NCBI GenBank assembly: GCA_965202985.1
Contig: CBDBCF010000002.1
Coordinates: 128,001-192,000 of the forward strand
Source: Longimicrobiales bacterium
GTDB lineage: Bacteria; Gemmatimonadota; Gemmatimonadetes; Longimicrobiales; Gaopeijiaceae
Direction of reading: 5' to 3'
Length of the DNA stretch: 64,000 nucleotides
Shown here piece after piece: positions 31,231 through 58,166 of this stretch. Each line of letters opens with the position of its first letter. Position 1 is the first letter of the stretch. A program made the position numbers and the translations under genes. The notes beneath the pieces were generated by a model. That model ran no database searches, was not told the origin of the DNA, and was given only the letters and a program-made list of their open reading frames with translations.

Positions 31231-34200
31231 TTACCCCAGGACTTCCACCAGCTCGGCCACCACGTTCACGGCTTCCTCGTCGTCGGTGGCGATCTCGATC
31301 GGCGCGAAGTCGGCGTTGTCGGGCTCCAAGGTCACCTTGACGTGGCGCCAGCCGCCTTCGTCCTGGCGCTTCTCGCTGCGGTAGCGCTTGACGGTGAAGC
31401 GGTAGCCCGTCTCCGGATCGGCCTGGTCCAAGAGCTGGACGAGAAGCACTCGACCTTGGCGCGAGCCGGCCACGTCGCGCCGGAAAAGACAGTACGCCCC
31501 GTCGGGGATGCCCGGCGCCATGGAGCGGCCCACGACCTGCGCCGCGAAGATGCCGGGCCGAAGCGACCGTCCCGTTTCCACCTCCAGCCACTCCCATTCG
31601 TCGTCGTCAAGGAGCGTCTGCGGGTCGCCGAAAGCTCCGGCCGCAGCCTTCAACGGGACGAACGGCACGCAGTTCACGTAGCGCCCGGCCGGTTCGGGCT
31701 TGATCAGACGCAGGCGTGGTCGCGCCCGGGCGTCGGAGGACCCGGGCGTCGGGAACCATGATCGGTCGATGCCCAGCTCCCTCGCCCTCTCGCCCATGCC
31801 CAAGTAGCGGGCCAAGCGGCGAAAGTGGCGTGCCATGGCGTCCTCGTCGTCCAAGTCGTGAACAGCGATCTCGACCACTTCGTAGCCTTGGTTCCGCAGC
31901 CAGCCCCGAATCTGCGCGTCGCGTTCGGCGGTATCGGGGTTGCCGTGGAGGTGTCGGCTGAGGCCGTCCAGGTAGATGCACACGCCTTCGTCGGCGTCGT
32001 GGCCGGGACCTCGGTAGATCACGTCGGGCGTCGTGGTACCCAGGACGCGGTCCAGCCGAATCTGCTCGTCGCGCCCGCCTTCCGCGAAACCGGCCCGCAA
32101 CAGCAATCGACGGAGCTTGGCCTCGGCGGCGTTGACGGGGATGGTGCTGCTGCGTGGAAGAGTCGCGTCCGGCTGACGGGGCGGAATGTTGTGCTCCCAC
32201 GCCAGGTTGCTCCCCCACTTGTCGAAGCGCTTGACTGCGTTTCCGCGGTCGAGGAAGCGGTGGTAGTAGGCGTTGCGGAAGGTCTGGAGGCAGTCGGTGC
32301 ACGCCGATTCGCACAGGGCGGGGCACTCGCCGACGACTTGCCGGGCCGCCGCGACCACTTCTCCAAAGCGGTCGCATATCCGCTCCAAGAGGCCGGAGCC
32401 GCCGGGCATCGGGTCCCACAGCAGCGCGTCCACGGCCTCCTCGTGCATCTTGCCGACGACCAGGACCTGCAGGTCGTCGATGTGCATGTCGAGCACGCGG
32501 GCGGCGCCGAAGCGCAGGGCCTCCAAGACGCTGTGCGCCGTAGTCTGGCCGTCGCACGCCGGCAGGGAAAGGGCGTCCGCGATCACGTCCGCATGGAAGC
32601 CCACGAGTCCCGGCTTGCGGTTGCACCGCTCCTCGTGGCCCTTGTCGAACTCCTCCCGCTGGCGGTCCGACGCGAACGGCGAGACGCTGTGGCCGCAAAC
32701 CGAGCACACGGGATAACCCAGCGCGCCCCCGCCTTCCATGGAGGTCGCGGGACCTACGTTGACCAGACGCATCCGCACGCCCCGGCGAAGCAGCAACGAT
32801 TGCGCGCCCCACCGATAGGCATCGCCGCCGCTGTGCTGGTTGCGCTCGACGCCCGCGACGGCGACTCCCAGCTGAAAGCGAAGGTCCTCTTCGTCGGAGA
32901 TGTGGGACGTGTGCACGAGGTCGACGTCGCAGACGGCCATGGTGGGCAGCGTTGCGTCCCCGTCGGTGCCGCCGCCGTGCGGGGCCTCGGCAACGGCCCG
33001 CCGCCTCCGCGACACCGCGTAGGTCGCCATGTCGGTCCGGCGCTCGTTGGCGTCCCTGTGAAAGCGGCGGGCGGCGAAGCGATGGCCGTTGGCGTAGATC
33101 AGGTTGCCGGGCACGTACTCGCGCAGCGCGGTAGCCGGCGGACGCGGAAGCCGGAACTCCGCGGGCCCCGCCTTCCAGAAGGGCACTTCGGCCCAGCCCG
33201 TCACCGCGCCGGTCTCCAGGCCGTATCCGGGCAGGAATCCCTCCGCGGCGAGCACGCCGAAGGTGTTGGCGTCGTCGTGTCCCTCCGCATGTCTCCAGTT
33301 TCTCGGCGATGTGCCCTTCAGCTGCTTGACCAGCCGGTCGCAACGTCGGCGCAGCGCCTCCTCGGGCGGCTCCAGGCTTCCCTTCAGTTCCTGTTCGCGG
33401 TTCAAGCGCCCGATCTGCCGCATCGCCCACTGCAAGCGGTGCCGCAGGCGCGTCACGACCTCTTCGAGCTCGTCGGTGAATCGCTGCACGTGGCCTTGCA
33501 GCGCCGCGTCGGCTACGACTGCCGCGTCCGCCTCGGGCCAGCCCTGACGGAACACGCGCTTCGCGTCGTGCGTCAAGCTGTGCGAAAGGTCCTCCACGAG
33601 GCTCCGCAGGGGGCCGAAGTCGAAGGGCGCATCCCGCACCGCTCCGTCGGCGAACAGGTAGGGCGCCACTCGCCGGGGCAGGGCCGCGTTCAGCATGTTG
33701 CGAATGCGGTTTCGCTCGGCCTCGGGTCGTTCCGGGTCCTGGCTGTACCGGTACAGGGCGCCGATCGCGACGGCGTGAACGTGCTTGGCGACCATCACCT
33801 CGTTGCGAAGGTTGAACGCCGGCGGGTCGATCTTGCCGCCCAGAAGCTTCGGCGGGTCGGCGAAGTAGGCGCGGTCGTGGGAAACGGGCCGGCAGTAGGT
33901 CACGTTCACGGCCATGCGGTGACGCCGGCCCGCTCGCCCGGCGCGTTGCCAGTAGTTGGCGGGCAGAGGCGGCACATTGCGCATGAGCACCGAGTCCAGC
34001 CGACCGATGTCGATCCCGAGCTCCAGCGTCGGCGTGCACACGAGGCAGTTCACGGCATCGGACTCGCCCTTGAATCGGTTCTCCAGCCGGTCGCGCTCGT
34101 CGGGCGGCACCATGGCGGTGTGCTCATCGGAGCGAAGCATCGAGTAGTCGCCGTCCAGCAGCCGCAAGTTGTAGTCGTCGGGGTCCTCCTTGATCCACTC

Positions 34201-37185
34201 CAGCGCGCCGTCGCACCGCCAGGCCGGGCACAAGCCGTGGGGCACGTCGCGGGTGGCCTTGCGCCTGCACTTCCTGCAACGCCACACGCCCCTGTTCGGC
34301 TTCAACAGCAGCTTGTCGGCGGCCACCTGAAACACCCCGCTCACTCCCGGCAGCGGTCTCTTCCTGGACCCCTTGAGGACGACCCGGACAAGCAGCCCCG
34401 CCTCGACCAAGTATTCGAACAGGCCCTCCAGAAACGCCTCGACCGCGTCTCCCGCCACGCCCCACTTCCTGGCGATCTGGCGCATCGTGGTGTCGCCGCC
34501 GCCGGTGCTCAGCCACTGGGTGACCTGCGCGGGCTTCTCTGTCGGCTCTCGGCGTAGCTTCGTGGCGTTGGGCTTGAGGAAGCCGGGAAGGTAGCCCTGC
34601 TGAACTTCCCGATCGCCGTCCATCCAATGCTTGGTGAAGACCTCGTGCACGGGGTCGAAGAGCGCGCGCTTGCGGCGCAGATAGTCCAGGACGCTGGCGA
34701 CGCCTTCGCGCAACTTGTCGGGCGGGATGCCCAGCTGGTGGGCGTGAAGCTGAATCCACGGGTCCGTCGAACTCAGGCCGTCGTACTCCACCTTCATCCG
34801 GCCCCACGGCTCCAGGCCGTATGCTTGGCGCGGGGAAAGGGCCACCTCGCGCAGCACTTGAATGCGCAGGTACTTCCGGCGCTCCTGCCTGTGACGGACT
34901 CCGGTGCCGTCGCTCGGGGCGGCCTGCCAGACTTCGGGGATCAGCGCCCGAGAGAGGGCTTCGTCCTCGTCCAGTCGGTCGTCCAGGGATGCTGTAAGGT
35001 CGCCGACGGAGATCGTGCCGGCCTCGAGCACTTGGCTCATGAGCGCGCGCAGGCGGAAGCGGCGGGCGTGATCTTTCATCCAGCCCGCCTGGAACGCGGC
35101 GTCCTGCCGGTTGTCGCAGAAGACGAGAAGGCGCCGCCGCTCGGCGTGTTGCACCATGTCCTGCGAAAGGACGTGCACGTCGGCAACGTTGACGGCGCGC
35201 ACCTCGCGGGCAGGCTCCCGGTACCGACCGCCGCTGGGACGGCGACCCACCGATCCGCACGACAGGCAGCTCGTGAGAAGGCCCGGATTGTCCTTCTTCT
35301 GCCGGACCGCCAGCAGCTCCAAGAGCGGCCCCGGGCGGCCGCATGCCGAGCAGCTCGCCTGTGCCCGGGCGTGAGCGGCGCCGCAGCGACGGCAGAAGGC
35401 GAGCGACGCCGTGCGCTTGTGGGCGGGTGCGTCGTCGTCGTCCGCTTCGTCCGCGCCGATGAGCCGGTCGGTGACCAGGACGCGCTTTCCGCCCGCCTTC
35501 TGGTCCAGTCGCTCCCACCAGGGACCGCTGGGGCTCGCGTTGCCCCCGCCCGGCTTGGTTCCCGTGAAGGCGAAGTCCTTGAGGAATGCGACGAAGTAGT
35601 GCTGTCCGCACGTCGTGCAGGTGGTCACGGGGAAGCGGGCGCGGGCGCCGTCGGGTCCGTTGCTGGCGGCTTCGTCTTCGGCGGCCAGCCAGAGCCTGGG
35701 ACCGGAGGCCCCGTCGGGGAACGACGCGACCGCGCCGCCGACGCCGCGCACGAACGCATGCACGACGGGGCGAAGCAATGGGCGCCCTTGCAGGCGTGCC
35801 GCCGCCCCCAGCGTGAGCCAGGACAGGATCTCGGCTTGGGACGCGGACCTTCCAATCCGTTGCTCTAGGGCGGCGGGCAACGCCTCCAGGGCACGGGGCT
35901 CGGCAAGCTCCTCGTTCAGCGCGTAGACGACCTCGTTCTGCGACAGAGCCGCGTGCAGCGCCACCGGCCAGCCTTTGCCGCTGCCATCTCCATCGCCATC
36001 CGCGCCCGGAAGCGTTCGGCCCGACAGGGACCAGTAGGCCGCGCGAACCCTGCCTCCTACCGGGTCTTCGTCTTCGACGGCTCGCACGCACTGGTCGAGG
36101 ATGCCGGTGGCGTCTCCGTCGGGCGTGGGCGGCAGGAATCGCTGGCTAGCCCAGACCTCGGCCTCGTAGTCCTCTCCGACGGTTGCCACGTCCTCCGGCG
36201 CGACGCCGAAGAACCGAGCGGCGAAGTTGCGCGCCGCTTCCGGGTCCTCCCGGTCCACGATGGTGGCGGAAGTGGCGATGCACGTCGTGTGCTCCGGCCC
36301 CGCGTCGCAGAAGGCGCGAAGGCGGCGGAGCAGACAAGCGGACTCGGCCCCCATGACGCCAGTGAAGGTGTGGGCCTCGTCGAACACCAGGTAGTCCAGG
36401 CGCGCGCCGGCGAATAGTTCGATGTCGCGGCGGCGGGTCAGCAGAAGCTCCAGCTGCTTCACGTTGGTGAGCAGGATGCGCGGCTGGCGGCCCGGCGTCC
36501 GCATCGCTTCGCGCGAGCACACTTCCTCTGCAGGGTAGACGGCCTCTCCTTGACCGTCCTTTCGCGCCTGCTCCAACCGCGCCCGGTAGTCTGCCCGGGA
36601 CGAACCGGCGGGCAAGCGGAGGCCCGTCACGCCAGACTCCCCTTCCGGAGTCTTGCCGACGTAGATGCCGAACGAGACTCCAGTTCCGGCCAGCAGGTCC
36701 CGGAGCCGCAACAGCTGGTCCTCGGCGAGCGCGTTCATGGGGTAGACGATCACGGCGCTGACGCCCGGCGGCGCGTCTTCGTCCCGCAGCTCCAGGCACT
36801 TGCTGACGATGGGGTAGAGAAAGCACTCGGTCTTGCCCGAGCCGGTGCCCGTGGACACCAGTGTGGTCCGTCCCTCGGCGACGGCCCGAACCGCCTTTTC
36901 CTGGTGGCTGTACAGGTGAGTGATCGCCTCGGGAATCCGCTCCCGAAGAAGCGGGTGCAGCAGCCCCTCGCCCACCAGGTCATCCACCGCCGCGCCCTGC
37001 CTGAACGGGCGGGACAGGCTAACGTAAGGTCCCTTCAGCAGGGGCGACTGCCGGGTCTCGTCCAGAGAGAGGAGGTCGCGCATCTGGCCGCGAAGCCCCT
37101 CGTCCATGAACGGATAGGCCGTGAGCTGGTACCGCAGGAAGCTGCCGACAACCTTCTCGGTGTAGGCGACGGGGTTCAGGGCCAT
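31231..37185 (-). CDS. Large DEAH-box helicase (YprA/DrmA-like) with DUF1998, Vsr/DUF559-like nuclease and C-terminal S24 (LexA-like) domain
   Basis: TGTGSGKTE, YPMNALAEDQ, DEAH, TSAT, TPTLELGIDIG, YWQRAGRAGR; several CxxC; LWDPMPGGSG...CESACTDCL; TTPD...YLDG...H...RD; AAAG/GRSM/VKR. Confidence 0.92.
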   Translation of the reverse strand: MALNPVAYTEKVVGSFLRYQLTAYPFMDEGLRGQMRDLLSLDETRQSPLLKGPYVSLSRPFRQGAAVDDLVGEGLLHPLLRERIPEAITHLYSHQEKAVRAVAEGRTTLVSTGTGSGKTECFLYPIVSKCLELRDEDAPPGVSAVIVYPMNALAEDQLLRLRDLLAGTGVSFGIYVGKTPEGESGVTGLRLPAGSSRADYRARLEQARKDGQGEAVYPAEEVCSREAMRTPGRQPRILLTNVKQLELLLTRRRDIELFAGARLDYLVFDEAHTFTGVMGAESACLLRRLRAFCDAGPEHTTCIATSATIVDREDPEAARNFAARFFGVAPEDVATVGEDYEAEVWASQRFLPPTPDGDATGILDQCVRAVEDEDPVGGRVRAAYWSLSGRTLPGADGDGDGSGKGWPVALHAALSQNEVVYALNEELAEPRALEALPAALEQRIGRSASQAEILSWLTLGAAARLQGRPLLRPVVHAFVRGVGGAVASFPDGASGPRLWLAAEDEAASNGPDGARARFPVTTCTTCGQHYFVAFLKDFAFTGTKPGGGNASPSGPWWERLDQKAGGKRVLVTDRLIGADEADDDDAPAHKRTASLAFCRRCGAAHARAQASCSACGRPGPLLELLAVRQKKDNPGLLTSCLSCGSVGRRPSGGRYREPAREVRAVNVADVHVLSQDMVQHAERRRLLVFCDNRQDAAFQAGWMKDHARRFRLRALMSQVLEAGTISVGDLTASLDDRLDEDEALSRALIPEVWQAAPSDGTGVRHRQERRKYLRIQVLREVALSPRQAYGLEPWGRMKVEYDGLSSTDPWIQLHAHQLGIPPDKLREGVASVLDYLRRKRALFDPVHEVFTKHWMDGDREVQQGYLPGFLKPNATKLRREPTEKPAQVTQWLSTGGGDTTMRQIARKWGVAGDAVEAFLEGLFEYLVEAGLLVRVVLKGSRKRPLPGVSGVFQVAADKLLLKPNRGVWRCRKCRRKATRDVPHGLCPAWRCDGALEWIKEDPDDYNLRLLDGDYSMLRSDEHTAMVPPDERDRLENRFKGESDAVNCLVCTPTLELGIDIGRLDSVLMRNVPPLPANYWQRAGRAGRRHRMAVNVTYCRPVSHDRAYFADPPKLLGGKIDPPAFNLRNEVMVAKHVHAVAIGALYRYSQDPERPEAERNRIRNMLNAALPRRVAPYLFADGAVRDAPFDFGPLRSLVEDLSHSLTHDAKRVFRQGWPEADAAVVADAALQGHVQRFTDELEEVVTRLRHRLQWAMRQIGRLNREQELKGSLEPPEEALRRRCDRLVKQLKGTSPRNWRHAEGHDDANTFGVLAAEGFLPGYGLETGAVTGWAEVPFWKAGPAEFRLPRPPATALREYVPGNLIYANGHRFAARRFHRDANERRTDMATYAVSRRRRAVAEAPHGGGTDGDATLPTMAVCDVDLVHTSHISDEEDLRFQLGVAVAGVERNQHSGGDAYRWGAQSLLLRRGVRMRLVNVGPATSMEGGGALGYPVCSVCGHSVSPFASDRQREEFDKGHEERCNRKPGLVGFHADVIADALSLPACDGQTTAHSVLEALRFGAARVLDMHIDDLQVLVVGKMHEEAVDALLWDPMPGGSGLLERICDRFGEVVAAARQVVGECPALCESACTDCLQTFRNAYYHRFLDRGNAVKRFDKWGSNLAWEHNIPPRQPDATLPRSSTIPVNAAEAKLRRLLLRAGFAEGGRDEQIRLDRVLGTTTPDVIYRGPGHDADEGVCIYLDGLSRHLHGNPDTAERDAQIRGWLRNQGYEVVEIAVHDLDDEDAMARHFRRLARYLGMGERARELGIDRSWFPTPGSSDARARPRLRLIKPEPAGRYVNCVPFVPLKAAAGAFGDPQTLLDDDEWEWLEVETGRSLRPGIFAAQVVGRSMAPGIPDGAYCLFRRDVAGSRQGRVLLVQLLDQADPETGYRFTVKRYRSEKRQDEGGWRHVKVTLEPDNADFAPIEIATDDEEAVNVVAELVEVLG

Positions 37186-37203
37186 GGACGGGGGCTGATC
37201 TTG

Positions 37204-37254
37204 TCAATCAACATCACGGATAGGCAGGTTCTTCTCGTCGGAGTCAATTGCCAT
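37204..37254 (-). pseudogene. 16-codon stub (MAIDSDEKNLPIRDVD) overlapping the Panacea stop; possible remnant of the cognate toxin gene
   Basis: ATG preceded by GGAG, overlapping the antitoxin stop as in typical TA operons. Confidence 0.3.
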
Positions 37255-37756
37255 TTCGGCTCTCCATGATTCGCAGGTAGTACTTGCCAATCAGCTCGTT
37301 GGGAATGTGCACGTTTCTCATGCCCTTGTTCTCGTTCCACACGATGTCCCACGGCGTGCCGGGCGCGTGGGCCATGCCGGACAGTTGCAGACCGCTGAAG
37401 TCGCCGTAGACCTTCCACACTCGTCCAAGGAGCGCGACCGCATTGACGTCGTCCGTCTCGACACGAGGCGTAACCAGCTTGAAGTCGGTTCCCACGAGCT
37501 CGAAGTCGGTCGCGTAGTCGAGTATGGGCGACGCGCCGTAGTGCTTGAACTCGTGGTAAACGGACGGGAAGACCGGGCCGTACTCCCATGCCTCGACGTA
37601 TTCGTCCGAGACCAGTGGTTTCCCGCCGCTGAGTGCGAGATGCCAGCCGTGAGAGATGTACACGAGCTTCTGAATCATCAGCGGCGATATCTCTTTCGTG
37701 CGAGTTCGTCCGAAGTCCAGGAAGTGATTCGCCACTGCTTTCGCGGTGTAGCCCAT
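37244..37756 (-). CDS. Panacea/SocA-like (DUF4065) antitoxin
   Basis: AVANHF, IQKLVY..HGW.L, EAWEYGPV..SVY..FK, LS.MAH...TPW. Confidence 0.88.
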   Translation of the reverse strand: MGYTAKAVANHFLDFGRTRTKEISPLMIQKLVYISHGWHLALSGGKPLVSDEYVEAWEYGPVFPSVYHEFKHYGASPILDYATDFELVGTDFKLVTPRVETDDVNAVALLGRVWKVYGDFSGLQLSGMAHAPGTPWDIVWNENKGMRNVHIPNELIGKYYLRIMESRNGN

Positions 37757-37827: not shown

Positions 37828-37857
37828 ATCGTAACACATCAATGCGACGCTTGTCAA
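37828..37857 (-). promoter_or_regulatory. Near-consensus sigma70 promoter upstream of the Panacea and helicase genes
   Basis: Minus strand TTGACA-N18-TACGAT with an extended -10 TGn. Confidence 0.6.
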
Positions 37858-37963: not shown

Positions 37964-38190
37964 GGAGCTCCTCCGGAAGCCGGTCCAGGTACGGGCGAGT
38001 TCCCGCCAAGCCCAGCCGTGTCGGGGAGGCGTCGAGCTGCGGCACGCGCTCCAGGAGGGTCCCGGCCCCTGCAAGGATGCGCCGATTGGACTCAGGGACG
38101 CCGCTCCGCAGCGCGGGGCTGGCGGGATCGGGCTGTCCGAGGGCGAGTCGCACGCGCGGAGCGCGATGAGCCAGGCAGTTGACGGCCAAG
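37964..38190 (-). pseudogene. Degenerate, frameshifted copy of the 3' (TPR) end of the Schlafen-GHKL-TPR gene
   Basis: 37992-38111 aligns with 42850-42974 (cgggcgagttcccgccaagcccag identical); ESNRR.LA.A.TLLERV.QLDASP and HGWAWRELART are split over two frames. Confidence 0.8.
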
Positions 38191-38657: not shown

Positions 38658-38864
38658 GTGACGAGAACGCTGACTGCAATCATCGAACGCGAGGGCGACC
38701 TGTACGTCGCGACCTGTCCGTACTTCGACGTGATTACCCAAGGACACACCATTCAAGAAGCTCAAGACAACCTCAAAGAAGCCGTCGAGCTGTCGCCCGC
38801 CGAGAAGATGGCAAGGGATCGACCGGAGTTCTACGTTACCGACGTCGAAGTCACCGTTGGGTAG
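38658..38864 (+). CDS. HicB-like antitoxin (short form)
   Basis: AAGGAGG RBS; LTAIIEREGDLYVATCP..DVITQG.TIQEA.DNLKEAVEL. Confidence 0.82.
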   Translation: MTRTLTAIIEREGDLYVATCPYFDVITQGHTIQEAQDNLKEAVELSPAEKMARDRPEFYVTDVEVTVG

Positions 38865-49930: not shown

Positions 49931-52900
49931 GGACGGCGCCGCGTTGCCGGGAGGCGCACTTCCACGGCCACCGGAAAGAGTTGGGCGTCCCCCGCCAAGG
50001 CGAAGCGCTTGGGAAACAGCCGTTTCACTGTGCGGTCGCGCTCTCGCTGGAGCTGGTCGCGAATCTCGTCGTGATGGAAGCGACGGCGCTTCAGCTCTTC
50101 TTCCCGTTCCTCGATAGATCGCTCCAAGTCGGCCAAGCGCTCGGCTTCGTTGAAGAGCTGTCCTTGGTCGCGCTGCCCCTTGAGTCGCTCGATTTCACGG
50201 CCCAGCCTGTCCATTGTGGTGCGTGTGATGAGTTCGGAGACTTCGGCCAGGCGCTGTCGGTAGCTCTCGTTATCGCGCTCCCTGGCATCGTCGCCGTCAA
50301 GCGAAAGCTGGGTGGCCAAGCGTACGCCGAGGCGGCGCCTGTGGTCGCGCATCCACTGCTTGAGCTCCGGCGCGGCGGCTTCCAGGATCTCGGCGGCCTG
50401 TGCCCGGCGAGCCGCGTCCTCGCACTTGCTTGCGCCCAGGAGCGACCGGGCGGGCGCGTGGGGAAGGGGCGGTCCGAGCTCGCCGTCGCGCACGGGGAAC
50501 ACGACCGTCCGCACCCAGCGGTGGAACGTCTCCCGCAACTTGTTCACGCCGATCTCCTCCACGCTGAGCAGAACCGCCGCCTCGGCTCCTTCCGGCACGC
50601 CGCCGCAGCGCGCGGTCCAGCGCGAGGCCTCGCTCCCGGCGCCCGGGTATCGCCGTTTCGCCAGCACGCCCAGGGCATGGCGCATGATTGGGTGGGCCAA
50701 GTGGACGAGCAACGCATCCTTTCGTGGCCGGAAGACGCTCAAGTCGCCCATCTGCTGGATGAACGGCTTTGGACCGAAAGCCAGTGCGGGAACCGGTCCC
50801 TGCGCCCCGCCGAGTCCGGGGCGGCGGACGGACTCGTCCACTACTTGGTTCCAGCCGGGCAACCCGGGGTTCACAAGCCGGTGAAGGCCGTCGCGGCCGT
50901 TGCTGCCGCCGCTGGTCTCGTGGGCGCGCGCGGCGGGCTCGAGCTGCGGCCGCCCGGCCGTGTCCGCCATCGCCGCCTCCAGCGTATCCCGGACCGCTTC
51001 GGGGTCGAAATCGATTTCGGCGGCTAAAATGTCCAGCGAAATGTCCCGATTTTCGCCGTTTGATGTCCCATCGGATGTCCCGTTGGACGTCCGGTCGGCG
51101 GCCCCGTCGCCGCCAAGGCTGGCACGGCCTCGCGCCGCCTCCACTTCCAAGTCCAGCCCGGCATGCACGGCGGCGGCGTCCTCGCCCCGAACCAAGCGGC
51201 GATGAACGGCACGGTCGAAGACCTCGTTGACCGACCCCAGGTCCTCCCGGATGTCGTCGGCCTTGCGGACCACATGGTCCAGGAAGCGCAAGTCCGGGTC
51301 CGTGTCGCTCACGAAGTGGTGGACGGTCACGTCGCGGGCTTGGCCGTAGCGGTCCAGGCGGCCGTTGCGCTGCTCCAGCCGAGACGGGTTCCAGGGACAG
51401 TCCCAGTGGAGCAGGTAGCGGGCCGTGCGGTGCAGGTTGAGCCCCTCCGACGCGGCGTCGGTGGCCACGAGGATGCGCACGGGGGACATGGGGTCGTTGA
51501 ACGCCGCCTTGACGTGCTCGCGCCCCGACTCGTCCATCCCGCCGGGGCCGCCCGCGCCGAACAGGGTCAGGATACGTTCGTCTCCGTAGCGCTCCCGCAG
51601 GCGGCGGGCCACATAATCCAGCGTCGTCTTGTACTCCGTGAAGACGACCAGCCGCTCATTGCCGCGGAACCGATCCTCGGCGCGAAGGCAGTCCTCGACG
51701 AGCTTCAAGAGCCGGTCGAAGCGGGCGTCGGCAATGGGCGTTTGGGACACGACGGGCGCAGCGCCGGCATCCAAGTCGAACTCCAGCCGGGCAAGGGCGT
51801 CTTCGATCCCGCGGACCTCGGCCATCAAGTCGCCCGCGAAGTTCTTCAGCCACGCCCCCACGACCGTCGATGCCGTGGCCTGGCGCTGCTGCGCCTCGCG
51901 GTCGTCGCCCGTGTCTTGGCGCAGCGAGCGTTCCACCGTGGCAAGCTGTTGATCGCCGGCGGCCTGCGGGTCCTCGAACCCCTGCTTGGCGCGGCTCCAC
52001 GACTCGGCGAAGGCGGTGGGGCAGGACAGCAGCCGCTTGCCGAAGATCTCGACCGCGAACGCACCGGCGCGGCGACGGCGTTTGCCTCCTTCCGCGACTT
52101 GCTCCCGGATGGCACTGCGAAAGGCGTCGAAGGCGGCGGAGAGGCGGGCCTCGTGCGGGCCGAAGGCGAGCGCCAGGGCCTTGGGCGGGCGCCGGGTGCA
52201 GAAGCGGGGGCCGGTCCCCTCGCCGGTCGCGGTCGCGTTGATGTCGCGCTTGAGCCGGCGAATCACCACGTCGTCGATGCGTCCGCGCATGGCGGGCGTC
52301 ATCTCGCTGGTGCGCGAGAAGCGGACCGGGTCCAGCATCTCCAGCAGTCCGGTGAACGAGCGGGTGTGGCCGTTGTGGGGCGTGGCCGACAGGAAGAGCC
52401 GGTGCTCGAAGCGCGGGGCCACAAAGCGCAGCATCTTGCACAGCTCGCTGTCTTCGCCGAACGGGGACGGCATCAGGTTGTGGCACTCGTCGACGATTAG
52501 CAGGTCCCATGGCAGGTGGGGAGAGCCTTCGCGAGTCTGGTGGTCGCAGGCCGCCCGGAACTGCTCCATCACGTCCGGCTGGCGCAGGTAGTGGTACGAC
52601 GCCACGACGCGGCTGAAGGAGCGCCAGGGGTTGGCGTCCATGCCTTGGCGGCGGCGCAGCTTCTCCGTGCTCAGCCGGTCCACGATCTCGAAGGGCAGCG
52701 AAAACTTCTCCTGCATCTCTTCGCTCCACTGGCGGCGGAGCGAGGCGGGCGTCAGCACCAGCACGCGACGGATGCGGCGGCGCAGCAGCAGCTCGGACAG
52801 AACGAGGCCGGCTTCCACGGTCTTGCCCAGCCCCACGTCGTCGGCGATGAGCAGGTTGACCCGGGGCATCCGCAACGCCTTCAGGAGCGGCTCCAACTGG

Positions 52901-53265
52901 TAGTTCTCAATGCGGACGCCACCGTGGAAGGGGCTGGCCAGGGGCTCCTGGGCCGGGCGGCCGTCGCCGGACGGGTCGAGGTAGGGCGAGATGGCCGTCC
53001 ACCGAGCCGCCCGAAGCATGGCGTCGAAGTCGGGCGCGGCCATGGGCGGACGGGCCGGGTCGGGCAGGGCGTTGGGCTCCAGGAGAGACGGCCTGCCTTC
53101 GATCTCCCACAGAAGGCGTTCCTCTCGGGGCGACTGATGGTCCGCGTACTCCAAGTGGACCAGGTGGATCCGGCCACGCTCGCCGTCGTGGGGCTCCACC
53201 GCCGCCACCACGCCCCTCCGGTTGCGGACGGTGGCCAGCATTCCGGGGCGGGGGACGTCCGTCAT
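49927..53265 (-). CDS. drmD: SNF2-family helicase, DrmD-like
   Basis: LLIADDVGLGKTVEAG, DECH, LSATPHNG, TDAASEGLNL, WNPSRLEQRNGRLDRYGQ; GTGA overlap with the MTase start. Confidence 0.85.
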   Translation of the reverse strand: MTDVPRPGMLATVRNRRGVVAAVEPHDGERGRIHLVHLEYADHQSPREERLLWEIEGRPSLLEPNALPDPARPPMAAPDFDAMLRAARWTAISPYLDPSGDGRPAQEPLASPFHGGVRIENYQLEPLLKALRMPRVNLLIADDVGLGKTVEAGLVLSELLLRRRIRRVLVLTPASLRRQWSEEMQEKFSLPFEIVDRLSTEKLRRRQGMDANPWRSFSRVVASYHYLRQPDVMEQFRAACDHQTREGSPHLPWDLLIVDECHNLMPSPFGEDSELCKMLRFVAPRFEHRLFLSATPHNGHTRSFTGLLEMLDPVRFSRTSEMTPAMRGRIDDVVIRRLKRDINATATGEGTGPRFCTRRPPKALALAFGPHEARLSAAFDAFRSAIREQVAEGGKRRRRAGAFAVEIFGKRLLSCPTAFAESWSRAKQGFEDPQAAGDQQLATVERSLRQDTGDDREAQQRQATASTVVGAWLKNFAGDLMAEVRGIEDALARLEFDLDAGAAPVVSQTPIADARFDRLLKLVEDCLRAEDRFRGNERLVVFTEYKTTLDYVARRLRERYGDERILTLFGAGGPGGMDESGREHVKAAFNDPMSPVRILVATDAASEGLNLHRTARYLLHWDCPWNPSRLEQRNGRLDRYGQARDVTVHHFVSDTDPDLRFLDHVVRKADDIREDLGSVNEVFDRAVHRRLVRGEDAAAVHAGLDLEVEAARGRASLGGDGAADRTSNGTSDGTSNGENRDISLDILAAEIDFDPEAVRDTLEAAMADTAGRPQLEPAARAHETSGGSNGRDGLHRLVNPGLPGWNQVVDESVRRPGLGGAQGPVPALAFGPKPFIQQMGDLSVFRPRKDALLVHLAHPIMRHALGVLAKRRYPGAGSEASRWTARCGGVPEGAEAAVLLSVEEIGVNKLRETFHRWVRTVVFPVRDGELGPPLPHAPARSLLGASKCEDAARRAQAAEILEAAAPELKQWMRDHRRRLGVRLATQLSLDGDDARERDNESYRQRLAEVSELITRTTMDRLGREIERLKGQRDQGQLFNEAERLADLERSIEEREEELKRRRFHHDEIRDQLQRERDRTVKRLFPKRFALAGDAQLFPVAVEVRLPATRRRP
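51055..51092 (-). repeat. Three degenerate 12-nt tandem units inside the SNF2 gene
   Basis: Encodes TSNG-TSDG-TSNG. Confidence 0.55.
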
Positions 53266-54863
53266 GCTCCCCACACCGCGATCTCGGTACCGTTCTCGGC
53301 GGTGCGGACGTCGCGAAACACCTTCTCGTCCCAACTGCGTTCCTGGTTGCGGTCGAAGACGACCAAGTGCCCGGCCTCGGCCCCGCAGCGATCCATGTAC
53401 GCCGCCGTCTGCTCCACGCCCTCGGCCACGGTGCGATCCCGGCGCCGGCGCTCGTGGCGAACCTTGCATTCGACCACGTACTTGCTCGCGCGCCCGCCCT
53501 GCGGCCACACGATCAACAGGTCGGTGCGCCCGCTGCCCAGCGCGTACTCTCGCTCGATCCGCCCGCCGCTGTTGACGACCCGCTGCAGGAACGCCTGCAA
53601 GAGCAGCTGCGGTCCCGCCTCCTTGAAGCCGTAGCGCTCGACCCAATGCTCCGAGTTCTCGCGGTAGAATTGCTGGAACGCTTCGAGCAGCTTGCCCAAC
53701 AGCAGCGCGCCGGAGGCGTCCACGTACCAGGCCGGGTCGTGCGGCAGGTCGTCCTGGGCGAGCCATGTGAGTTCGCGGGGCACGACCTCGGCGTAGATGG
53801 GGTTGGCCATGCGGATCGGGGGGTCGCGGGCGATCAGGCCCAGGTCCCGGACGTACTCCACGTCCCGAGCGGTGTAGCTGGACTCGCTGGCGCCGGCGAG
53901 AAGTGGTTCGACGACCCGCCAGACGCGGTCCTCGCGCAGCTTGTCGGTCAGCTGGTCCAGGTGGGTGTCGCGACGCTGGATCAGCTGCTCGCGGGCGTCC
54001 AGCACGTCCGCCTCGGTCACTGGGCGGGACCGATCCTTCGCCAAGTCGCCGCGGAAGCAGGTCTCGTAGGCCAGGGCGTTGACGAGCCAGGGCTGGCCCT
54101 GGGTCTGGGTCCAGATCGCGCCCATTGCGTCGTCGGTGAACGACTGTCCGGTCTCCTCGGTGTGCTGGCGGAGCAGGTCGTGCACTTCGTTCTTGGAGAA
54201 GTCGCCCAGGCGCAGGGACTCGGCCTTGATGTTGAAGGCGCTGCCGCCGGCGATCATCGTCTTGGCCGAGCCGGACCAGATGCGGTAGTCGCGGACGTCG
54301 CGGACGCCGCACAGGACCACGCTCTGGGGGAACCTCCCGGGCCTCATGTCGTAGCCTGCGCGAAGCTGGCGCAGCGCCGCCAGGAGCGTGTCGCCCACCA
54401 GCGCATCGATCTCGTCGATCAGCAGCACCAGCGGCTTCTCGTCGGCCTCGGCCCAGCGCGACAGGGCCTCGCCCCAAGCGCCGTCTCCGTGTTCGGCGAA
54501 GATCTCGGACCACGCCCCGGTCAGGAAGTCGTCGCCCGCCCGCCGCGCTTGGCGGGCCATCTGGCTCAGCATCACTTGCGTTGCCGCCCTCACGTCTTCG
54601 CGCATCGCCTGGCCGGCTTCGACGTTGACGTAGACGCAGCGGTAGCGGCCCTCGGCGTTGAGCAGGTCCTGGAGCGCCAGCAGAGCCGATGTCTTGCCGG
54701 TCTGCCGGGGGGCGTGAAGCACGAAGTACTGCTGTTCGTCGATCAGCTCTCGGACCTCGGCAAGGTCGAGTCGATCGAGGGGAGCGATGCAGTAGTGGCG
54801 TCGCTCCACTACGGGACCGGACCTGTTGAAGCGGCGCATCGGCGACAAGCCCTGGGACGACAT
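53262..54863 (-). CDS. AAA-like ATPase with C-terminal PD-(D/E)XK nuclease domain, copy 3
   Basis: HAPRQTGKTS (Walker A), LLIDEID (Walker B), GQPWLVN; REY..G.GRTDL...VVECK...Q...Y; ATGA overlap with the SNF2 start. Confidence 0.88.
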   Translation of the reverse strand: MSSQGLSPMRRFNRSGPVVERRHYCIAPLDRLDLAEVRELIDEQQYFVLHAPRQTGKTSALLALQDLLNAEGRYRCVYVNVEAGQAMREDVRAATQVMLSQMARQARRAGDDFLTGAWSEIFAEHGDGAWGEALSRWAEADEKPLVLLIDEIDALVGDTLLAALRQLRAGYDMRPGRFPQSVVLCGVRDVRDYRIWSGSAKTMIAGGSAFNIKAESLRLGDFSKNEVHDLLRQHTEETGQSFTDDAMGAIWTQTQGQPWLVNALAYETCFRGDLAKDRSRPVTEADVLDAREQLIQRRDTHLDQLTDKLREDRVWRVVEPLLAGASESSYTARDVEYVRDLGLIARDPPIRMANPIYAEVVPRELTWLAQDDLPHDPAWYVDASGALLLGKLLEAFQQFYRENSEHWVERYGFKEAGPQLLLQAFLQRVVNSGGRIEREYALGSGRTDLLIVWPQGGRASKYVVECKVRHERRRRDRTVAEGVEQTAAYMDRCGAEAGHLVVFDRNQERSWDEKVFRDVRTAENGTEIAVWGA

Positions 54864-56467
54864 CACATCCCCCACACCGCGATCTCGGCCCCGCTCTCGG
54901 CGGTGCGGACGTCGCGGAAGACCTTCTCGTCCCAGCTGCGCTCGTCGCTGCGGTCAAAGACGATCAAGTGCCCGGCCTTGGCCCCGCACCGATCCATGTA
55001 GGCGGCCGTCTGCTCCACGCCCTCGGCCACGGTGCGATCTCGGCCGCGGCGTTCGTGGCAAACCTTGCATTCGACCACGTACTTGCTTGCGCGTTCGCCC
55101 TGCGGCCACACGACCAGCAAGTCCGTGCGACCCGTCCCCAGCGCGTACTCCCGCTCGATCCGCCCGCCGCTGTTGACGACCCGCTGCAGGAACGCCTGCA
55201 AGAGCAGCTGCGGTCCCGCCTCCTTGAAGCCGTAGCGCTCGATCCAGTGCTCCGAGTGCTCCCGGTAGAACTCCTGGAACGCTTCGAGCAGCTTGTCCAA
55301 CAGCAGTGCGCCGGAGGCGTCCACGTACCAAGTCGGGTCGTGGGGCAGGTCGTCCTGGGCCAGCCAGGTCAGCTCGCGGGGCACGACTTCGGCGTAGATG
55401 GGGTTGGCCATGCGGATCGGCGGGTCGCGGGCGATCAGGCCCAGGTCCCGGACGTACTCCACGTCCCGAGCGGTGTAGCTGGACTCGCTGGCGCCGGCCA
55501 GAAGCGGTTCGACGACCCGCCATACGCGGTCCTCGCGCAGCTTGTCGGTCAGCTGGTCCAGGTGGGTGTCGCGGCGCTGGATCAGCTGCTCGCGGGCGTC
55601 CAGCATGTCCGCTTCGGTCACTGGGCGGGACCGGTCTTTCGCCAAGTCGCCGCGGAAGCAGGTCTCGTAGGCCAGGGCGTTGACGAGCCAGGGCTGTCCT
55701 TGGGTCTGGGTCCAGATCGCTTCGAGCGCGTCGTCGGTGAACGGTTGTCCGGTCTCCTCGGTGTGCTGTCGAAGCAGGTCGTGCGCTTCGTCCTTGGAGA
55801 AGTCGCCCAGGCGCAGGGACTCGGCCTTGATGTTGAAGGCGCTGCCGCCGGCGATCATCGTCTTGGCCGAGCCGGACCAGATGCGGTAGTCGCGGACGTC
55901 GCGGACGCCGCACAGGACCACGCTCTGGGGGAACCTCCCGGGCCTCATGTCGTAGCCTGCGCGAAGCTGGCACAGCGCCGCCAGGAGCGTGTCGCCCACC
56001 AGCGCATCGATCTCGTCGATCAGCAGCACCAGCGGCTTCTCGTCGGCCTCGGCCCAGCGCGACAGAGCCGCTCCCAGAGCGCCGTCGCGAAACTCGTCGG
56101 CGATGCCGGACCAAGCGCTCGACAGGAAGTCGTCGCCAAGCGCCGCCCGAGCCCGCAAGGCCATCTGGCCCAGCATGACCCGAGTCGCGCGCTCCACGTC
56201 TTCGCGCATCGCCTGGCCGGCTTCGACGTTGACGTAGACGCAGCGGTAGCGGCCCTCGGCGTTGAGCAGGTCCTGGAGCGCTAGCAGAGCCGACGTCTTG
56301 CCGGTCTGCCGGGGAGCGTGAAGCACGAAGTACTGCTGTTCGTCGATCAGCTCTCGGACCTCGGCAAGGTCGAGTCGGTCGAGGGGAGCGATGCAGTAGT
56401 GGCGTCGCTCCACTACGGGACCGGACCTGTTGAAGCGGCGCATCGGCGACAAGCCCTGGGACGACAT
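54863..56467 (-). CDS. AAA-like ATPase with C-terminal PD-(D/E)XK nuclease domain, copy 2
   Basis: Same motifs as copy 3; TGATG coupling to both neighbours; alternative start at ATG 56443. Confidence 0.88.
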   Translation of the reverse strand: MSSQGLSPMRRFNRSGPVVERRHYCIAPLDRLDLAEVRELIDEQQYFVLHAPRQTGKTSALLALQDLLNAEGRYRCVYVNVEAGQAMREDVERATRVMLGQMALRARAALGDDFLSSAWSGIADEFRDGALGAALSRWAEADEKPLVLLIDEIDALVGDTLLAALCQLRAGYDMRPGRFPQSVVLCGVRDVRDYRIWSGSAKTMIAGGSAFNIKAESLRLGDFSKDEAHDLLRQHTEETGQPFTDDALEAIWTQTQGQPWLVNALAYETCFRGDLAKDRSRPVTEADMLDAREQLIQRRDTHLDQLTDKLREDRVWRVVEPLLAGASESSYTARDVEYVRDLGLIARDPPIRMANPIYAEVVPRELTWLAQDDLPHDPTWYVDASGALLLDKLLEAFQEFYREHSEHWIERYGFKEAGPQLLLQAFLQRVVNSGGRIEREYALGTGRTDLLVVWPQGERASKYVVECKVCHERRGRDRTVAEGVEQTAAYMDRCGAKAGHLIVFDRSDERSWDEKVFRDVRTAESGAEIAVWGM

Positions 56468-58050
56468 CACATCCCCCATACCGCGATCTTGGCCCCGCTC
56501 TCGACAGTTCGGACGTCGCGGAAGACCTTCTCGTCCCAGCTGCGCTCGTCGCTGCGGTCGAAGACGACCAAGTGCCCAGCCTCGGCCCCGCATCGGTCCA
56601 TGTAGGCCGCCGTCTGCTCCACGCCCTCGGCCACGGTGCGATCCCGGCTCCGGCGCTCGTGGCGAACCTTGCATTCGACCACGTGCTTGCCCGTGCCCTC
56701 GCCCTGCGGCCAGACAACAAGCAAGTCCGTGCGACCCGTCCCCAGCGCATACTCCCGCTCGATACGCCCGCCGCTGTTGACGACCCGCTGCAGGAACGCC
56801 TGCAAGAGCAGTTGCGGTCCGGCCTCCTTGAAGCCGTAGCGCTCGACCCAATGCTCCGAGTGCTCCCGGTAGAACTCCTGGAACGCTTCGAGCAGCTTGC
56901 CCAACAGCAGTGCGCCGGAGGCGTCCACGTACCAAGTCGGATCGTGGGGCAAGTCGTCCTGGGCCAGCCAAGTCAGCTCGCGGGGCACGACTTCGGCGTA
57001 GATCGGGTTCGCCATGCGGATCGGCGGGTCGCGGGCGATCAGGCCGAGGTCGCGGACGTACTCCACGTCCCGCTCGGTGTAGGACGACTCGCAGGCATTG
57101 GTCAGGATCGGTTCGATCACCCGCCATACGCGGTCTTCGCGCAGCTTGTCGGCGAGCTGGTCCAAGTGCGTGTCGCGACGGAGGATCAGCGCTTCTTGCG
57201 CCTTCACCATGTCCGCCTGGGTCACGGAGCGGGAACGGTCTTTGGCCAGCGCGCCCCGGAAGCAGGTCTCGTAGGCCAGCGCGTTGACGAGCCACGGCTG
57301 GCCCTGCGTCCGGGTCCAGATCGCGTCCAACGCACCGTCGGTGAACGGCTGGCCGGTCTCGGCGGCGTGCTGCCCCAGCAGGTCGCGCACGTCGTCCTTG
57401 GAGAAGTCGCCCAAGCGCAAGGACTCGGCCTTGACGTTGAAGGCACTGCCGCCGGCAACCATCGTCTTCGCCGAGCCGGAGTGGATGCGGTAGTCGCGCA
57501 CGTCCCGCACGCCGCACAAGATCACGCTCTGGGGAAACCCCGCAGGTCGCAGGTGGTGGCCTGCCCGGAGTTGCCGCAACACCGCCAAGAGCGAGTCGCC
57601 CACCAGCGCGTCGATCTCGTCGACGAGCAGGACCAGCGGTTTGTCGCCATTCCTCGCCCAGCGAGTCAGCGCCACCCGCAATGCGCTGTGTCCGCCGCTC
57701 TTGGTGAGCACGGCGGCCCACGTATCGGCAAGGAAGCTGTTTTCCAGCGTGTAGTGGGCGGCTTCGGCCAGCTCGCTGAGGACGGTGCGAACCGCTGCTT
57801 CCACGTCTTCGCGGGCCGTTGTCGCGCCTTCGACGTTGACGTAGACGCAATCGTAGCGGCCCTCGGAGTTCATTAGATCCCGGAGGGCGAGGAGCGTGGA
57901 TGTCTTCCCCGTCTGCCGGGGCGCGTGGAGCACGAAGTACTGCTGTGCGTCGATCAGCTCTCGGACTTCGGCAAGGTCGATTCGGTCAAGCGGCGGAACG
58001 CAGTAGTGGTCTCGCTCCACTACAGGACCAGACCTGTTGAACCGGCGCAT
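56467..58050 (-). CDS. AAA-like ATPase with C-terminal PD-(D/E)XK nuclease domain, copy 1
   Basis: MRRFNRSGP, HAPRQTGKTS, LLVDEID, GRTDLLV...VVECK. Confidence 0.88.
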   Translation of the reverse strand: MRRFNRSGPVVERDHYCVPPLDRIDLAEVRELIDAQQYFVLHAPRQTGKTSTLLALRDLMNSEGRYDCVYVNVEGATTAREDVEAAVRTVLSELAEAAHYTLENSFLADTWAAVLTKSGGHSALRVALTRWARNGDKPLVLLVDEIDALVGDSLLAVLRQLRAGHHLRPAGFPQSVILCGVRDVRDYRIHSGSAKTMVAGGSAFNVKAESLRLGDFSKDDVRDLLGQHAAETGQPFTDGALDAIWTRTQGQPWLVNALAYETCFRGALAKDRSRSVTQADMVKAQEALILRRDTHLDQLADKLREDRVWRVIEPILTNACESSYTERDVEYVRDLGLIARDPPIRMANPIYAEVVPRELTWLAQDDLPHDPTWYVDASGALLLGKLLEAFQEFYREHSEHWVERYGFKEAGPQLLLQAFLQRVVNSGGRIEREYALGTGRTDLLVVWPQGEGTGKHVVECKVRHERRSRDRTVAEGVEQTAAYMDRCGAEAGHLVVFDRSDERSWDEKVFRDVRTVESGAKIAVWGM

Positions 58051-58052
58051 TC

Positions 58053-58166
58053 CTAAACGTACCACAGGACTTCCGAGAGCTCGACCACCACCTTCAGGCG
58101 CTCGAGCGGGGGAATGCAGTAGTGGTCCTCCGGCACTACCGGACCGGACGTGTTGAAGTAGCGCAT
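58053..58166 (-). pseudogene. 37-aa N-terminal stub of a fourth AAA-ATPase paralogue
   Basis: MRYFNTSGPVVPEDHYCIPPLERL...ELSEVL matches MRRFNRSGPVVERDHYCVPPLDRIDLAEV of copy 1. Confidence 0.75.

What the first reader, a model, noticed from the sequence alone, without database searches (positions are those of the whole stretch)
31231..58166. DISARM class I-related (ARMADA-like) system with a non-canonical architecture
Seen: DrmD-like SNF2, a large N6-MTase, and a helicase with DUF1998 fused in one chain. Known: DISARM class I is drmD, drmMI, drmA, drmB (DUF1998) and drmC (PLD); here A and B functions are fused and no PLD gene is present. From memory this resembles the recently proposed ARMADA group, which needs verifying. 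Unusual: three AAA-nuclease genes, SNF2, MTase and Schlafen-GHKL-TPR form one ~15-kb chain of overlapping start/stop codons, and ~5.5 kb of other modules separates it from the helicase. Inference: a methylation-based self/non-self core with layered back-up effectors.
Basis: partly seen in the sequence, partly recalled or inferred. Interest (0 to 1): 0.82.

Follow-up and report, generated by a model that had tools for sequence, protein, structure and literature searches.

The report
ARMADA defence island with self-cutting helicase
This 27-kb inserted block carries a three-gene system of the recently named anti-phage class ARMADA type I, padded with swappable extra defence genes, and its large helicase-nuclease ends in an intact LexA-like domain predicted to cut itself, which would likely switch the enzyme off when the cell's own DNA is damaged.

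Summary
The anatomy is as described: a 15,328-bp coupled chain, and 5,537 bp before the helicase. The core is ARMADA type I (armA-armB-armC), not DISARM. The helicase sits in a 100%-supported clade with six relatives that the ARMADA paper lists as type I, and ArmD is absent. The other genes are cargo. The AAA-nuclease genes belong to a family with 19 more near-full copies in this genome. IetAS is missing from a same-genus copy of the island. The armB-armC gap holds 259 ORFs in 176 clusters across 50 relatives. The block is an insertion: three same-genus genomes have the empty site. ArmB's C-terminal half is swapped between near-identical islands, as expected of a sequence-specific methylase. 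Not found in print (four searches, plus the paper's text): ArmC's C-terminal LexA-fold S24 domain. Its Ala-Gly site is kept in 55 of 56 relatives, Ser in 56 of 56 and Lys in 54 of 55. The domain also rides on many restriction enzymes. I propose RecA-triggered self-cleavage that exposes a ClpX degron (untested). This scan has noted ARMADA I, its cargo slot and this tail before on other DNA. Verdict: new variant of a known kind.

The parts
31231..58166 (-). Whole inserted defence island (about 27 kb)
   Evidence: The flanking genes are neighbours in G001, G002 and G003. Matches end at window 31218-31220 and resume at 58217-58228, with 21-144 bp between. G001 carries the island at another site.
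31231..37185 (-). armC: YprA-family helicase, 1984 aa (DEAH motor, MZB/DUF1998, Vsr-like nuclease, S24 tail)
   Evidence: Pfam; PADLOC DruE models best; motifs; tree
31231..31716 (-). LexA-like S24 module of ArmC (residues 1824-1984): predicted cut site Ala1849-Gly1850, Ser1888, Lys1933
   Evidence: Pfam S24 28.1 bits, cut-off 23.3; conservation; model (LexA 1jhc Z 12.2, rmsd 2.9, 117 aligned)
31786..32133 (-). Vsr-like PD-(D/E)XK nuclease domain of ArmC (about residues 1685-1800)
   Evidence: Fold matches 3r3p Z 10.3, 3hrl Z 8.3 and Vsr 1cw0 Z 7.9; P-D and D-G-x5-H kept in 72 of the 72 sequences that cover them
37244..37756 (-). Panacea/SocA-like antitoxin gene (cargo)
   Evidence: NCBIfam SocA 117.6 bits, below cut-off 190; Pfam SocA_Panacea on the L001 copy; present in 1 of 79 loci
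37828..37857 (-). Promoter-like site (TTGACA-18-TACGAT, 10 of 12) ahead of panacea-armC; consensus match only
   Evidence: 3 sites found against 0.8 in shuffles
37978..38114 (-). Remnant copy of the 3' end of the Schlafen-TPR gene
   Evidence: 85% identical to 42835-42977; also present in G001, so older than the IetAS insertion
38266..38634 (+). 122-aa ORF of no known family (cargo)
   Evidence: No Pfam, PADLOC or NCBIfam hit; 96% identical copy in G001
38658..38864 (+). hicB-like gene whose hicA-like partner is replaced by IetAS
   Evidence: Weak Pfam UPF0150 hit. G001 has the pair with a 76-aa HicA-like ORF (the HicA label is from my reading of the sequence, recalled).
39008..42590 (-). IetA (42590-41571) and IetS (41590-39008): known two-gene defence system, nested cargo
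   Evidence: PADLOC IetA 495 bits, IetS 1020 bits; absent from G001's island; IetS in 0 of 79 related loci
42723..44693 (-). Schlafen/AlbA_2-HATPase_c_4-TPR gene (cargo, coupled to armB)
   Evidence: Pfam; full-length relative in 3 of 79 loci
44690..49930 (-). armB: N6-adenine methyltransferase, 1746 aa (motif I at D642-G648, NPPW at N953)
   Evidence: NPPW in 26 of 26 aligned
45022..46986 (-). Swapped C-terminal segment of armB, predicted to hold the target-recognition domain
   Evidence: DNA 90-91% identical to G001 on both sides, 63% or no match inside; G+C 0.57 (0.52 in the core) against 0.69 in the N-terminal half
49927..53265 (-). armA: SNF2/RapA-like ATPase, 1112 aa
   Evidence: Walker A, DECH and motif VI present
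53262..58050 (-). Three tandem AAA + PD-(D/E)XK genes, 79-92% identical in protein
   Evidence: 22 near-full copies in the genome, 19 outside the island; four copies at the same place in G001
58053..58166 (-). Truncated fourth AAA copy (37 codons) at the island edge
   Evidence: matches the start of G001's first full copy

Best explanation
The locus is an inserted defence island whose core is an ARMADA type I system in armA-armB-armC order; ArmB likely methylates adenines at a specific motif to mark self, and ArmA with the ArmC helicase-nuclease likely attacks unmarked incoming DNA. The AAA-nuclease triplet, Schlafen-TPR, IetAS, hicB-like and Panacea genes are exchangeable cargo before armA and in the armB-armC slot. 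They may add defence of their own but are not core parts. ArmC ends in an intact LexA-fold S24 domain predicted to cut itself at Ala1849-Gly1850. My preferred reading (inferred, about 0.35) is that activated RecA triggers this cut, exposing an Ala-Ala-Ala C-terminus that ClpXP recognises, so that the nuclease is destroyed while the cell repairs its own DNA. Shown: gene content, type assignment, cargo variability, insertion, intact motifs, folds. Inferred: methylation, defence, self-cleavage and its trigger and effect.
For: Type I: 6 of 12 contigs of close ArmC relatives that I looked up are in Bell et al. Table S1, all six as 'ARMADA Type I'. The window's ArmC lies in a 26-row, 100% SH-aLRT clade with them, away from E. 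coli type II. No ArmD in the window or in 79 loci (63 with at least 2.5 kb downstream); the positive control was found. Vsr fold matches include 3hrl, the paper's hit for type I. Cargo: armB lies upstream of armC in 50 of 79 loci, gap 7-9,247 bp, median 3,911, 5 under 300 bp; 259 ORFs in 176 clusters, many of them toxin-antitoxin, AAA_21, Schlafen, CBASS-like or IS genes (92 of 150 representatives had a Pfam hit, counted by hand). L002 has A-B-Schlafen-C only. Specificity: ArmB is 84-100% identical to G001's per 50-residue block up to residue 900, 68 and 56% in the next two blocks, then 26-64% to residue 1600; armB is also the variable gene in E. coli type II (PMC13463889). S24: 56 of 73 full-length ArmC carry it; Ala-Gly 55 of 56, Ser 56 of 56, Lys 54 of 55. 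In 129 fully covered matches from 151 wider relatives all three features are kept in 123. Of 114 of 150 representatives scanned, 44 have restriction or defence partner domains and 4 have HTH domains. In this genome's HsdR the module sits at residues 316-467, between nuclease and motor Walker A, so a cut there would sever the enzyme. recA, lexA and clpX are present. LexA-like proteins hide ClpXP degrons next to the cut (PMC5742171).
Against: No experiment exists for any type I ARMADA in the papers I read; only type II was tested. No methylome was available. PMC13463889 expects ArmC to read DNA structure rather than sequence. In the tree the distant references are on very long branches, and the other two type I references do not group with this clade, so the type rests on the six listed close relatives. 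Six other contigs were not in the cut table. S24-less ArmC relatives end just after the Vsr domain, much like the predicted cut product, which fits activation or a neutral tail as well as destruction. The Ala-Ala before Gly is also what the LexA cut site needs, so its conservation does not show a degron. 64 of 114 representatives show no partner domain at all, many probably fragments. Flanks of 10 kb rarely reach upstream of armA, so the AAA test rests on 9 loci.
Confidence: 0.8

Rival explanations
1. One co-evolved 'layered' system: the coupled AAA-nucleases and Schlafen-TPR are dedicated back-up effectors wired to the methylase core.
For: Five start/stop overlaps over 15.3 kb. The AAA array and the Schlafen gene are also in G001's island. 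A Schlafen-family gene follows armB in about 10 of 50 loci.
Against: The AAA family has 19 near-full copies outside the island. It matches only 2 of 79 loci, and none of 9 loci with armA's upstream visible. Full-length Schlafen-TPR is in 3 of 79 and IetS in 0 of 79. Five loci have no cargo at all.
Confidence: 0.08
2. The S24 tail is an on-switch: it keeps ArmC's nuclease or oligomer inactive until RecA filaments on phage or damaged single-stranded DNA trigger the cut (UmuD-like activation).
For: The predicted cut product ends near where 13 or more natural S24-less ArmC end. In 132 of 138 long matches the module is C-terminal. Gain or loss is scattered over the tree.
Against: In this genome's HsdR and five other proteins the module is internal, where a cut would split the enzyme. 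RecA activation also occurs during host repair, when unleashing a nuclease would be harmful (inference). The Vsr + S24 model has pTM 0.50 and gives no confident packing between the two domains.
Confidence: 0.25
3. The S24 tail cuts without RecA, or serves mainly as a dimerisation or turnover module or as a sensor of a phage anti-RecA protein.
For: A RecA-independent LexA-like protein is reported (PMC7101444, abstract in the listings). The module is longer than LexA's and only 22-25% identical to it. Sequence searches of the PDB found no LexA match.
Against: The cut site and both catalytic residues are kept together in 123 of 129 covered matches, which argues against a pure dimerisation role. 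The aligned region includes LexA's cleavage loop (1jhc 75-197).
Confidence: 0.25
4. It is a DISARM class 1 variant with fused drmAB, or a stand-alone type IIG restriction enzyme beside an unrelated helicase.
For: ArmA passes the NCBIfam DISARM_DrmD cut-off. ArmB's best PADLOC model is type IIG (1360 bits).
Against: The helicase scores 354 bits on DruE against 45 on DrmA models and groups with listed ARMADA I proteins. There is no PLD gene. ArmB's N-terminal nuclease-like region reads P-[RSN]-x-[LI]-W, without the acidic residue, in 25 of 25 sequences (motif reading recalled). armB and armC travel together in 52 or more of 79 loci.
Confidence: 0.05

Closest known systems
ARMADA type I (Bell et al. 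2025, bioRxiv 10.1101/2025.09.15.676423 = PMC12458937; parts 1-5 of 7 of the text read, Table S2 whole, Table S1 first part plus three look-ups, supplement PDF searched)
   Same: ArmA (BrxHII/RapA-like), ArmB (PglX-like, NPPW) and ArmC (YprA helicase with fused DUF1998 and C-terminal Vsr nuclease); no ArmD; mobile defence-island setting; six close relatives listed as type I.
   Different: A-B-C order, which the paper describes for many archaea and cyanobacteria, is here the usual order across many phyla (armB upstream in 50 of 79 loci). There are 7.5 kb of cargo between armB and armC. ArmC has a C-terminal S24 domain that the paper's text does not mention. No integrase or tRNA target was found.
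ARMADA type II (E. coli armABCD; same paper, and mBio 2026 PMC13463889, passages read)
   Same: A-B-C order; variable armB; the only tested form (non-abortive, all genes needed).
   Different: No RelE-UvrD ArmD here. ArmC is distant (243 summed bits against more than 2,200 for listed type I relatives). This genome has a separate type II locus on C1.
DISARM class 1 (drmD, drmMI, drmA, drmB, drmC)
   Same: DrmD-like SNF2 and DrmMI-like methylase.
   Different: Helicase and DUF1998 are fused and closer to DruE; no PLD DrmC; a Vsr nuclease is fused instead.
LexA / lambda CI / UmuD C-terminal domain (S24)
   Same: Fold (Z 10-12), Ala-Gly site, Ser-Lys pair.
   Different: Fused to a 1,800-residue helicase-nuclease and to restriction enzymes rather than to a repressor HTH; 22-25% identity; trigger untested.
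Restriction alleviation of EcoKI by ClpXP (PMC4231737, abstract and start of introduction read)
   Same: Proteolytic removal of a helicase-nuclease to spare host DNA is the model for the proposed switch.
   Different: EcoKI HsdR has no identified degron and no self-cleaving domain is described; here the degron would be built in and exposed by self-cleavage.
IetAS (PADLOC IetA/IetS models)
   Same: AAA ATPase plus S8 protease, full-length strong matches.
   Different: Nested inside the ARMADA cargo slot; below the NCBIfam equivalog cut-offs.

Membership tests
ARMADA type I | YprA helicase falls in the type I clade | tested here: met
   100% clade with six Table S1 type I proteins at 63-68% identity. 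The deep branches are long, and two distant type I references did not group with it.
ARMADA type I | BrxHII/RapA-like ArmA and PglX-like ArmB in the locus | tested here: met
   Walker and NPPW motifs intact
ARMADA type I | Helicase fused to DUF1998 and to a C-terminal Vsr-type nuclease | tested here: met
   MZB four Cys in 73 of 73; Vsr fold
ARMADA type I | Gene order C-A-B or the reversed A-B-C | tested here: met
   A-B-(cargo)-C; reversed order described in the paper
ARMADA type I | BrxA-like, zinc beta-barrel, MarR-like and coiled-coil inserts in ArmC | not tested
   CxxC motifs are visible at residues 523-526, 600-603, 612-615, 640-643 and 970-973; the 1984-aa core was not folded
ARMADA type I | Anti-phage activity | not testable with these tools
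   Needs phage challenge; only type II was tested in print
ARMADA type II | RelE-UvrD ArmD after ArmC | tested here: not met
   0 hits in the window and in 79 loci; control L093 found at 46% identity
DISARM class 1 | Separate drmA and drmB | tested here: not met
   One 1984-aa ORF
DISARM class 1 | PLD nuclease drmC | tested here: not met
   No PLD or DrmC hit in 30 ORFs
Type IIG restriction-modification enzyme (ArmB alone) | Active N-terminal PD-(D/E)XK nuclease | tested here: inconclusive
   Acidic residue missing at the expected place in 25 of 25; the motif position is recalled and no structure was predicted
S24 self-cleaving domain (LexA/CI/UmuD) | Fold with cleavage loop | tested here: met
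S24 self-cleaving domain (LexA/CI/UmuD) | Ala-Gly site and Ser-Lys dyad | tested here: met
   55 of 56, 56 of 56 and 54 of 55
S24 self-cleaving domain (LexA/CI/UmuD) | RecA-stimulated autocleavage | not testable with these tools
   recA is present; no assay
IetAS | Adjacent AAA ATPase and S8 protease with intact motifs | tested here: met
   PADLOC; motifs

The most novel reading that the evidence does not exclude
A mobile LexA-type self-cleaving module, grafted onto ArmC and onto type I, ISP, IIG, III and McrBC-like restriction enzymes, is a built-in SOS-linked off-switch: RecA filaments trigger the cut, which severs the enzyme or bares an Ala-Ala-Ala ClpX degron. This would be a protein-encoded, portable form of restriction alleviation that lets nuclease defences move between hosts without killing them.
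Probability: 0.35. Interest if true: 0.75.

Novelty: new variant of a known kind. Interest (0 to 1): 0.42.

Why it matters
The locus as flagged is a known system plus cargo, which is of modest interest. Two things add value. First, type I ARMADA has not been tested in the papers I could read, and this island and its same-genus twin form a natural pair with swapped ArmB specificity regions, which makes the open question 'does ARMADA use a methylated motif for self/non-self?' directly testable. Second, the S24 tail points to a possible direct link between the SOS signal and DNA-cutting defences. How restriction enzymes are silenced during host repair is understood only for a few enzymes, and the EcoKI degron was not found (PMC4231737).

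Tried and rejected
Sequence searches of the PDB with the S24 domain alone and with a profile found no LexA match; only the fold comparison did. No tRNA or tmRNA gene is in the window, no integrase was among the called genes, and I saw no target-site duplication at the junctions, so the route of insertion is unexplained. The idea that the Schlafen remnant marks a duplication made by the IetAS insertion was rejected: G001 has the remnant without IetAS. The idea that the three AAA genes are an assembly artefact was rejected: they are 79-92% identical and G001 has four; contigs are too short to span the array. No RNA holder was listed. Literature searches for an S24 fusion to defence or restriction enzymes returned 5, 1, 3 and 0 papers; I saw only titles and abstract starts, none on this fusion. 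The library lacks most subscription papers. Table S1 is held cut (34,868 rows), so the six contigs not found may be in the missing part. No complex prediction was run, because the relevant partner is a RecA filament. The gene calls in related loci are my own codon-based calls and can be off at the ends; 7 of 79 ArmC were left out of the alignment as split or short; 36 of 150 representatives (35 under 190 aa, one repeat protein) were not scanned.
Full report
1. Observation. All genes lie on the minus strand. From right to left: a 37-codon AAA stub (58166-58053); three AAA + PD-(D/E)XK genes (58050-53262); an SNF2 ATPase (53265-49927); a 1746-aa N6-adenine methylase (49930-44690); Schlafen-HATPase_c_4-TPR (44693-42723); IetA and IetS (42590-39008); on the plus strand a hicB-like gene and a 122-aa ORF; a 137-bp remnant of the Schlafen gene's end; a Panacea antitoxin (37756-37244); and a 1984-aa YprA helicase (37185-31231). 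In run X1, contigs with no differences cover 38823-40800, 41551-42822 and 44636-46269, and X2 spans the right edge 57910-59300 without differences. These runs may be the source sample, so this supports the assembly only.

2. The core is ARMADA type I. Bell et al. (bioRxiv 10.1101/2025.09.15.676423; parts 1-5 of 7 read) define ARMADA by a BrxHII-like ArmA, a PglX-like ArmB and a YprA helicase ArmC with fused DUF1998 and a Vsr nuclease. Type II adds a RelE-UvrD ArmD; type I is usually C-A-B but A-B-C in many archaea and cyanobacteria. I fetched 79 loci with ArmC relatives at 60-94% identity and looked up 12 of their contigs in Table S1. Six were listed, all as type I; six were not in the cut file. 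In a tree the window's ArmC lies in a 26-row clade with 100% support that holds those six. E. coli type II groups instead with another helicase of this genome. The outgroups have very long branches and two distant type I references do not join the clade, so the assignment rests on the six close relatives. ArmD is absent from the window and from all 79 loci, 63 of which show at least 2.5 kb downstream, while the genome's own type II ArmD was found at 46% identity. Walker A Lys, DEAH, SAT, motif VI and the four MZB cysteines are kept in 73 of 73 aligned ArmC, and the Vsr P-D and D-G-x5-H in 72 of 72. A model of residues 1685-1984 matches Vsr-like nucleases, including 3hrl, the paper's own hit for type I. 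It is not DISARM: DrmA/B are fused, there is no PLD, and DruE models score 354 bits against 45 for DrmA.

3. The rest is cargo. armB lies upstream of armC in 50 of 79 loci. The gap runs from 7 to 9,247 bp (median 3,911; five under 300) and holds 259 ORFs in 176 clusters. Of 150 representatives, 92 had a Pfam hit (counted by hand): toxin-antitoxin pairs, AAA_21 ATPases, Schlafen, CBASS-like and ubiquitin-like genes, DarT, transposases. L002 has only A-B-Schlafen-C. Full-length Schlafen-TPR occurs in 3 of 79 loci, Panacea in 1 and IetS in 0. Same-genus G001 carries the island at 90-95% DNA identity, with four AAA copies and an intact hicB/hicA-like pair where this genome has IetAS. A contig of run X1 joins 38864 to 42721, in line with an IetAS-free form; it was laid at 88% likeness and may come from a relative. 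The AAA-nuclease family has 22 near-full copies in the genome, 19 of them outside the island. It matches 2 of 79 loci and none of the 9 where armA's upstream is visible. Translational coupling here therefore does not mark system membership.

4. The block is an insertion. In G001, G002 and G003 the left flank (metallo-beta-lactamase-fold gene and DUF3006) and the right flank (enoyl-CoA hydratase) are neighbours, 21-144 bp apart. No tRNA, integrase or target duplication was found. The closest ArmC relatives come from records titled Longimicrobiales; since the island moves, this is weak evidence for the host.

5. ArmB looks sequence-specific. Against G001 it is 84-100% identical per 50-residue block up to residue 900, 68 and 56% in the next two blocks, then 26-64% to residue 1600. 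The DNA between 45022 and 46986 is replaced, with G+C 0.57 against 0.69. Across 25 relatives residues 1400-1600 are the least conserved stretch (mean 25-38%). Motif I and NPPW are intact in 26 of 26, and the N-terminal nuclease-like region lacks the acidic residue in 25 of 25 (motif reading recalled). Swapping a C-terminal region between otherwise identical genes is what target-recognition domains do (established knowledge, recalled). The mBio paper also finds armB the variable gene, yet expects structure-based recognition by ArmC (PMC13463889, passages). Methylation was not measured.

6. The S24 tail. ArmC residues 1824-1984 fold like the LexA C-terminal domain with its cleavage loop (1jhc Z 12.2, rmsd 2.9, 117 aligned; Foldseek E 2e-6). 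Fifty-six of 73 full-length relatives carry it, with Ala-Gly in 55 of 56, Ser in 56 of 56 and Lys in 54 of 55; most of the others end just after the Vsr domain, and a few run off their contig. Presence is scattered over the tree. A library-wide search gave 1,749 clusters at E 0.001. Of the best 150 I scanned 114: 44 have restriction or defence partners (type ISP, HsdR, HsdS, IIG, Res, McrC-like, PLD, HNH, Schlafen, ArmC), 4 have HTH domains, 2 have other domains and 64 show S24 only. All three features are kept in 123 of 129 fully covered matches, and the residues before Gly are AAA in 91. In this genome the module also sits inside HsdR at residues 316-467, between the nuclease and the motor's Walker A. 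The ARMADA paper's main text and supplement PDF do not hold 'S24', 'LexA' or 'peptidase', and four library searches showed no paper on such fusions by title or abstract start.

7. Mechanism. Inferred from type II experiments and family knowledge: ArmB marks host DNA, and ArmA with ArmC engages and nicks or unwinds unmarked invading DNA without killing the cell (core and cargo reading 0.8; motif-based self-marking about 0.65). For the tail I favour an off-switch (0.35). LexA-like proteins hide ClpXP degrons beside the cut (PMC5742171, passages), ClpXP removes EcoKI HsdR when host sites are unmethylated (PMC4231737, abstract), recA, lexA and clpX are in the genome, and an internal copy would sever HsdR. 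Against it, the cut product resembles natural tail-less ArmC, which fits activation (0.25), and Ala-Ala is needed for the cut itself. A RecA-independent or structural role remains (0.25).

8. Earlier notes. I reached the type I, cargo and S24 readings before my first look-up (note; reading given). The scan's notes on other genomes say the same, and one on this genome reads the HsdR insertion as an off-switch. They are unchecked AI notes and not independent support.

9. Verdict. Observation confirmed; interpretation partly supported. It is a type I ARMADA with ordinary cargo, and a variant by its S24 tail. Interest 0.42; the switch reading has probability 0.35 and would deserve 0.75.

Noticed in passing
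G000:C1:2328140-2359087 (L092, L093): A second ARMADA in the same genome, type II: ArmA-, ArmB- and ArmC-like genes with cargo between them, then an AAA_21 ATPase and a UvrD gene 46% identical to E. coli ArmD.
   Followed up: partly
G000:C2:197148-201386 (L090:7149-11387), 5 kb past the window's end: A third YprA-family helicase (1412 aa) behind a 927-aa gene without a Pfam hit; it groups with Druantia III references in the tree, on long branches.
   Followed up: partly
L095:6554-10198 (G000:C1 about 511.5-515.2 kb): Type I HsdR with the same S24 module (57% identical to ArmC's) inserted at residues 316-467, with cut site and catalytic pair intact.
   Followed up: yes
window 53262-58166 and 19 other places in G000: Large expansion of AAA + PD-(D/E)XK genes. 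Copies differ most in a helical patch after Walker A, and the G001 copies look like mosaics with 100%-identical blocks.
   Followed up: partly
L009, L046, L040, L068: Relatives with other gene orders: C-A-B in L009 and L046, armB upstream and armA downstream of armC in L040 and L068.
   Followed up: no
window 31228-31233: The stop codons of DUF3006 (+) and armC (-) abut with no spacer; G001's ArmC reads a few residues further, so the insertion junction seems to have supplied this stop.
   Followed up: no
G000:C2 about 640320-640538 (L110): A fourth S24 match in the genome, next to one of the AAA-nuclease copies; not characterised.
   Followed up: no
L092:7783-8358 region equivalent in L094 (G000:C1 about 1912.8-1914 kb): A fragment of an armA-like gene in L094, with no armB or armC hit in the 20 kb fetched.
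   Followed up: no
window 44701-47060, run X1: A contig carries a different armB C-terminal segment between matching stretches, so another specificity allele may be present in the same run (laid at 88% likeness).
   Followed up: no
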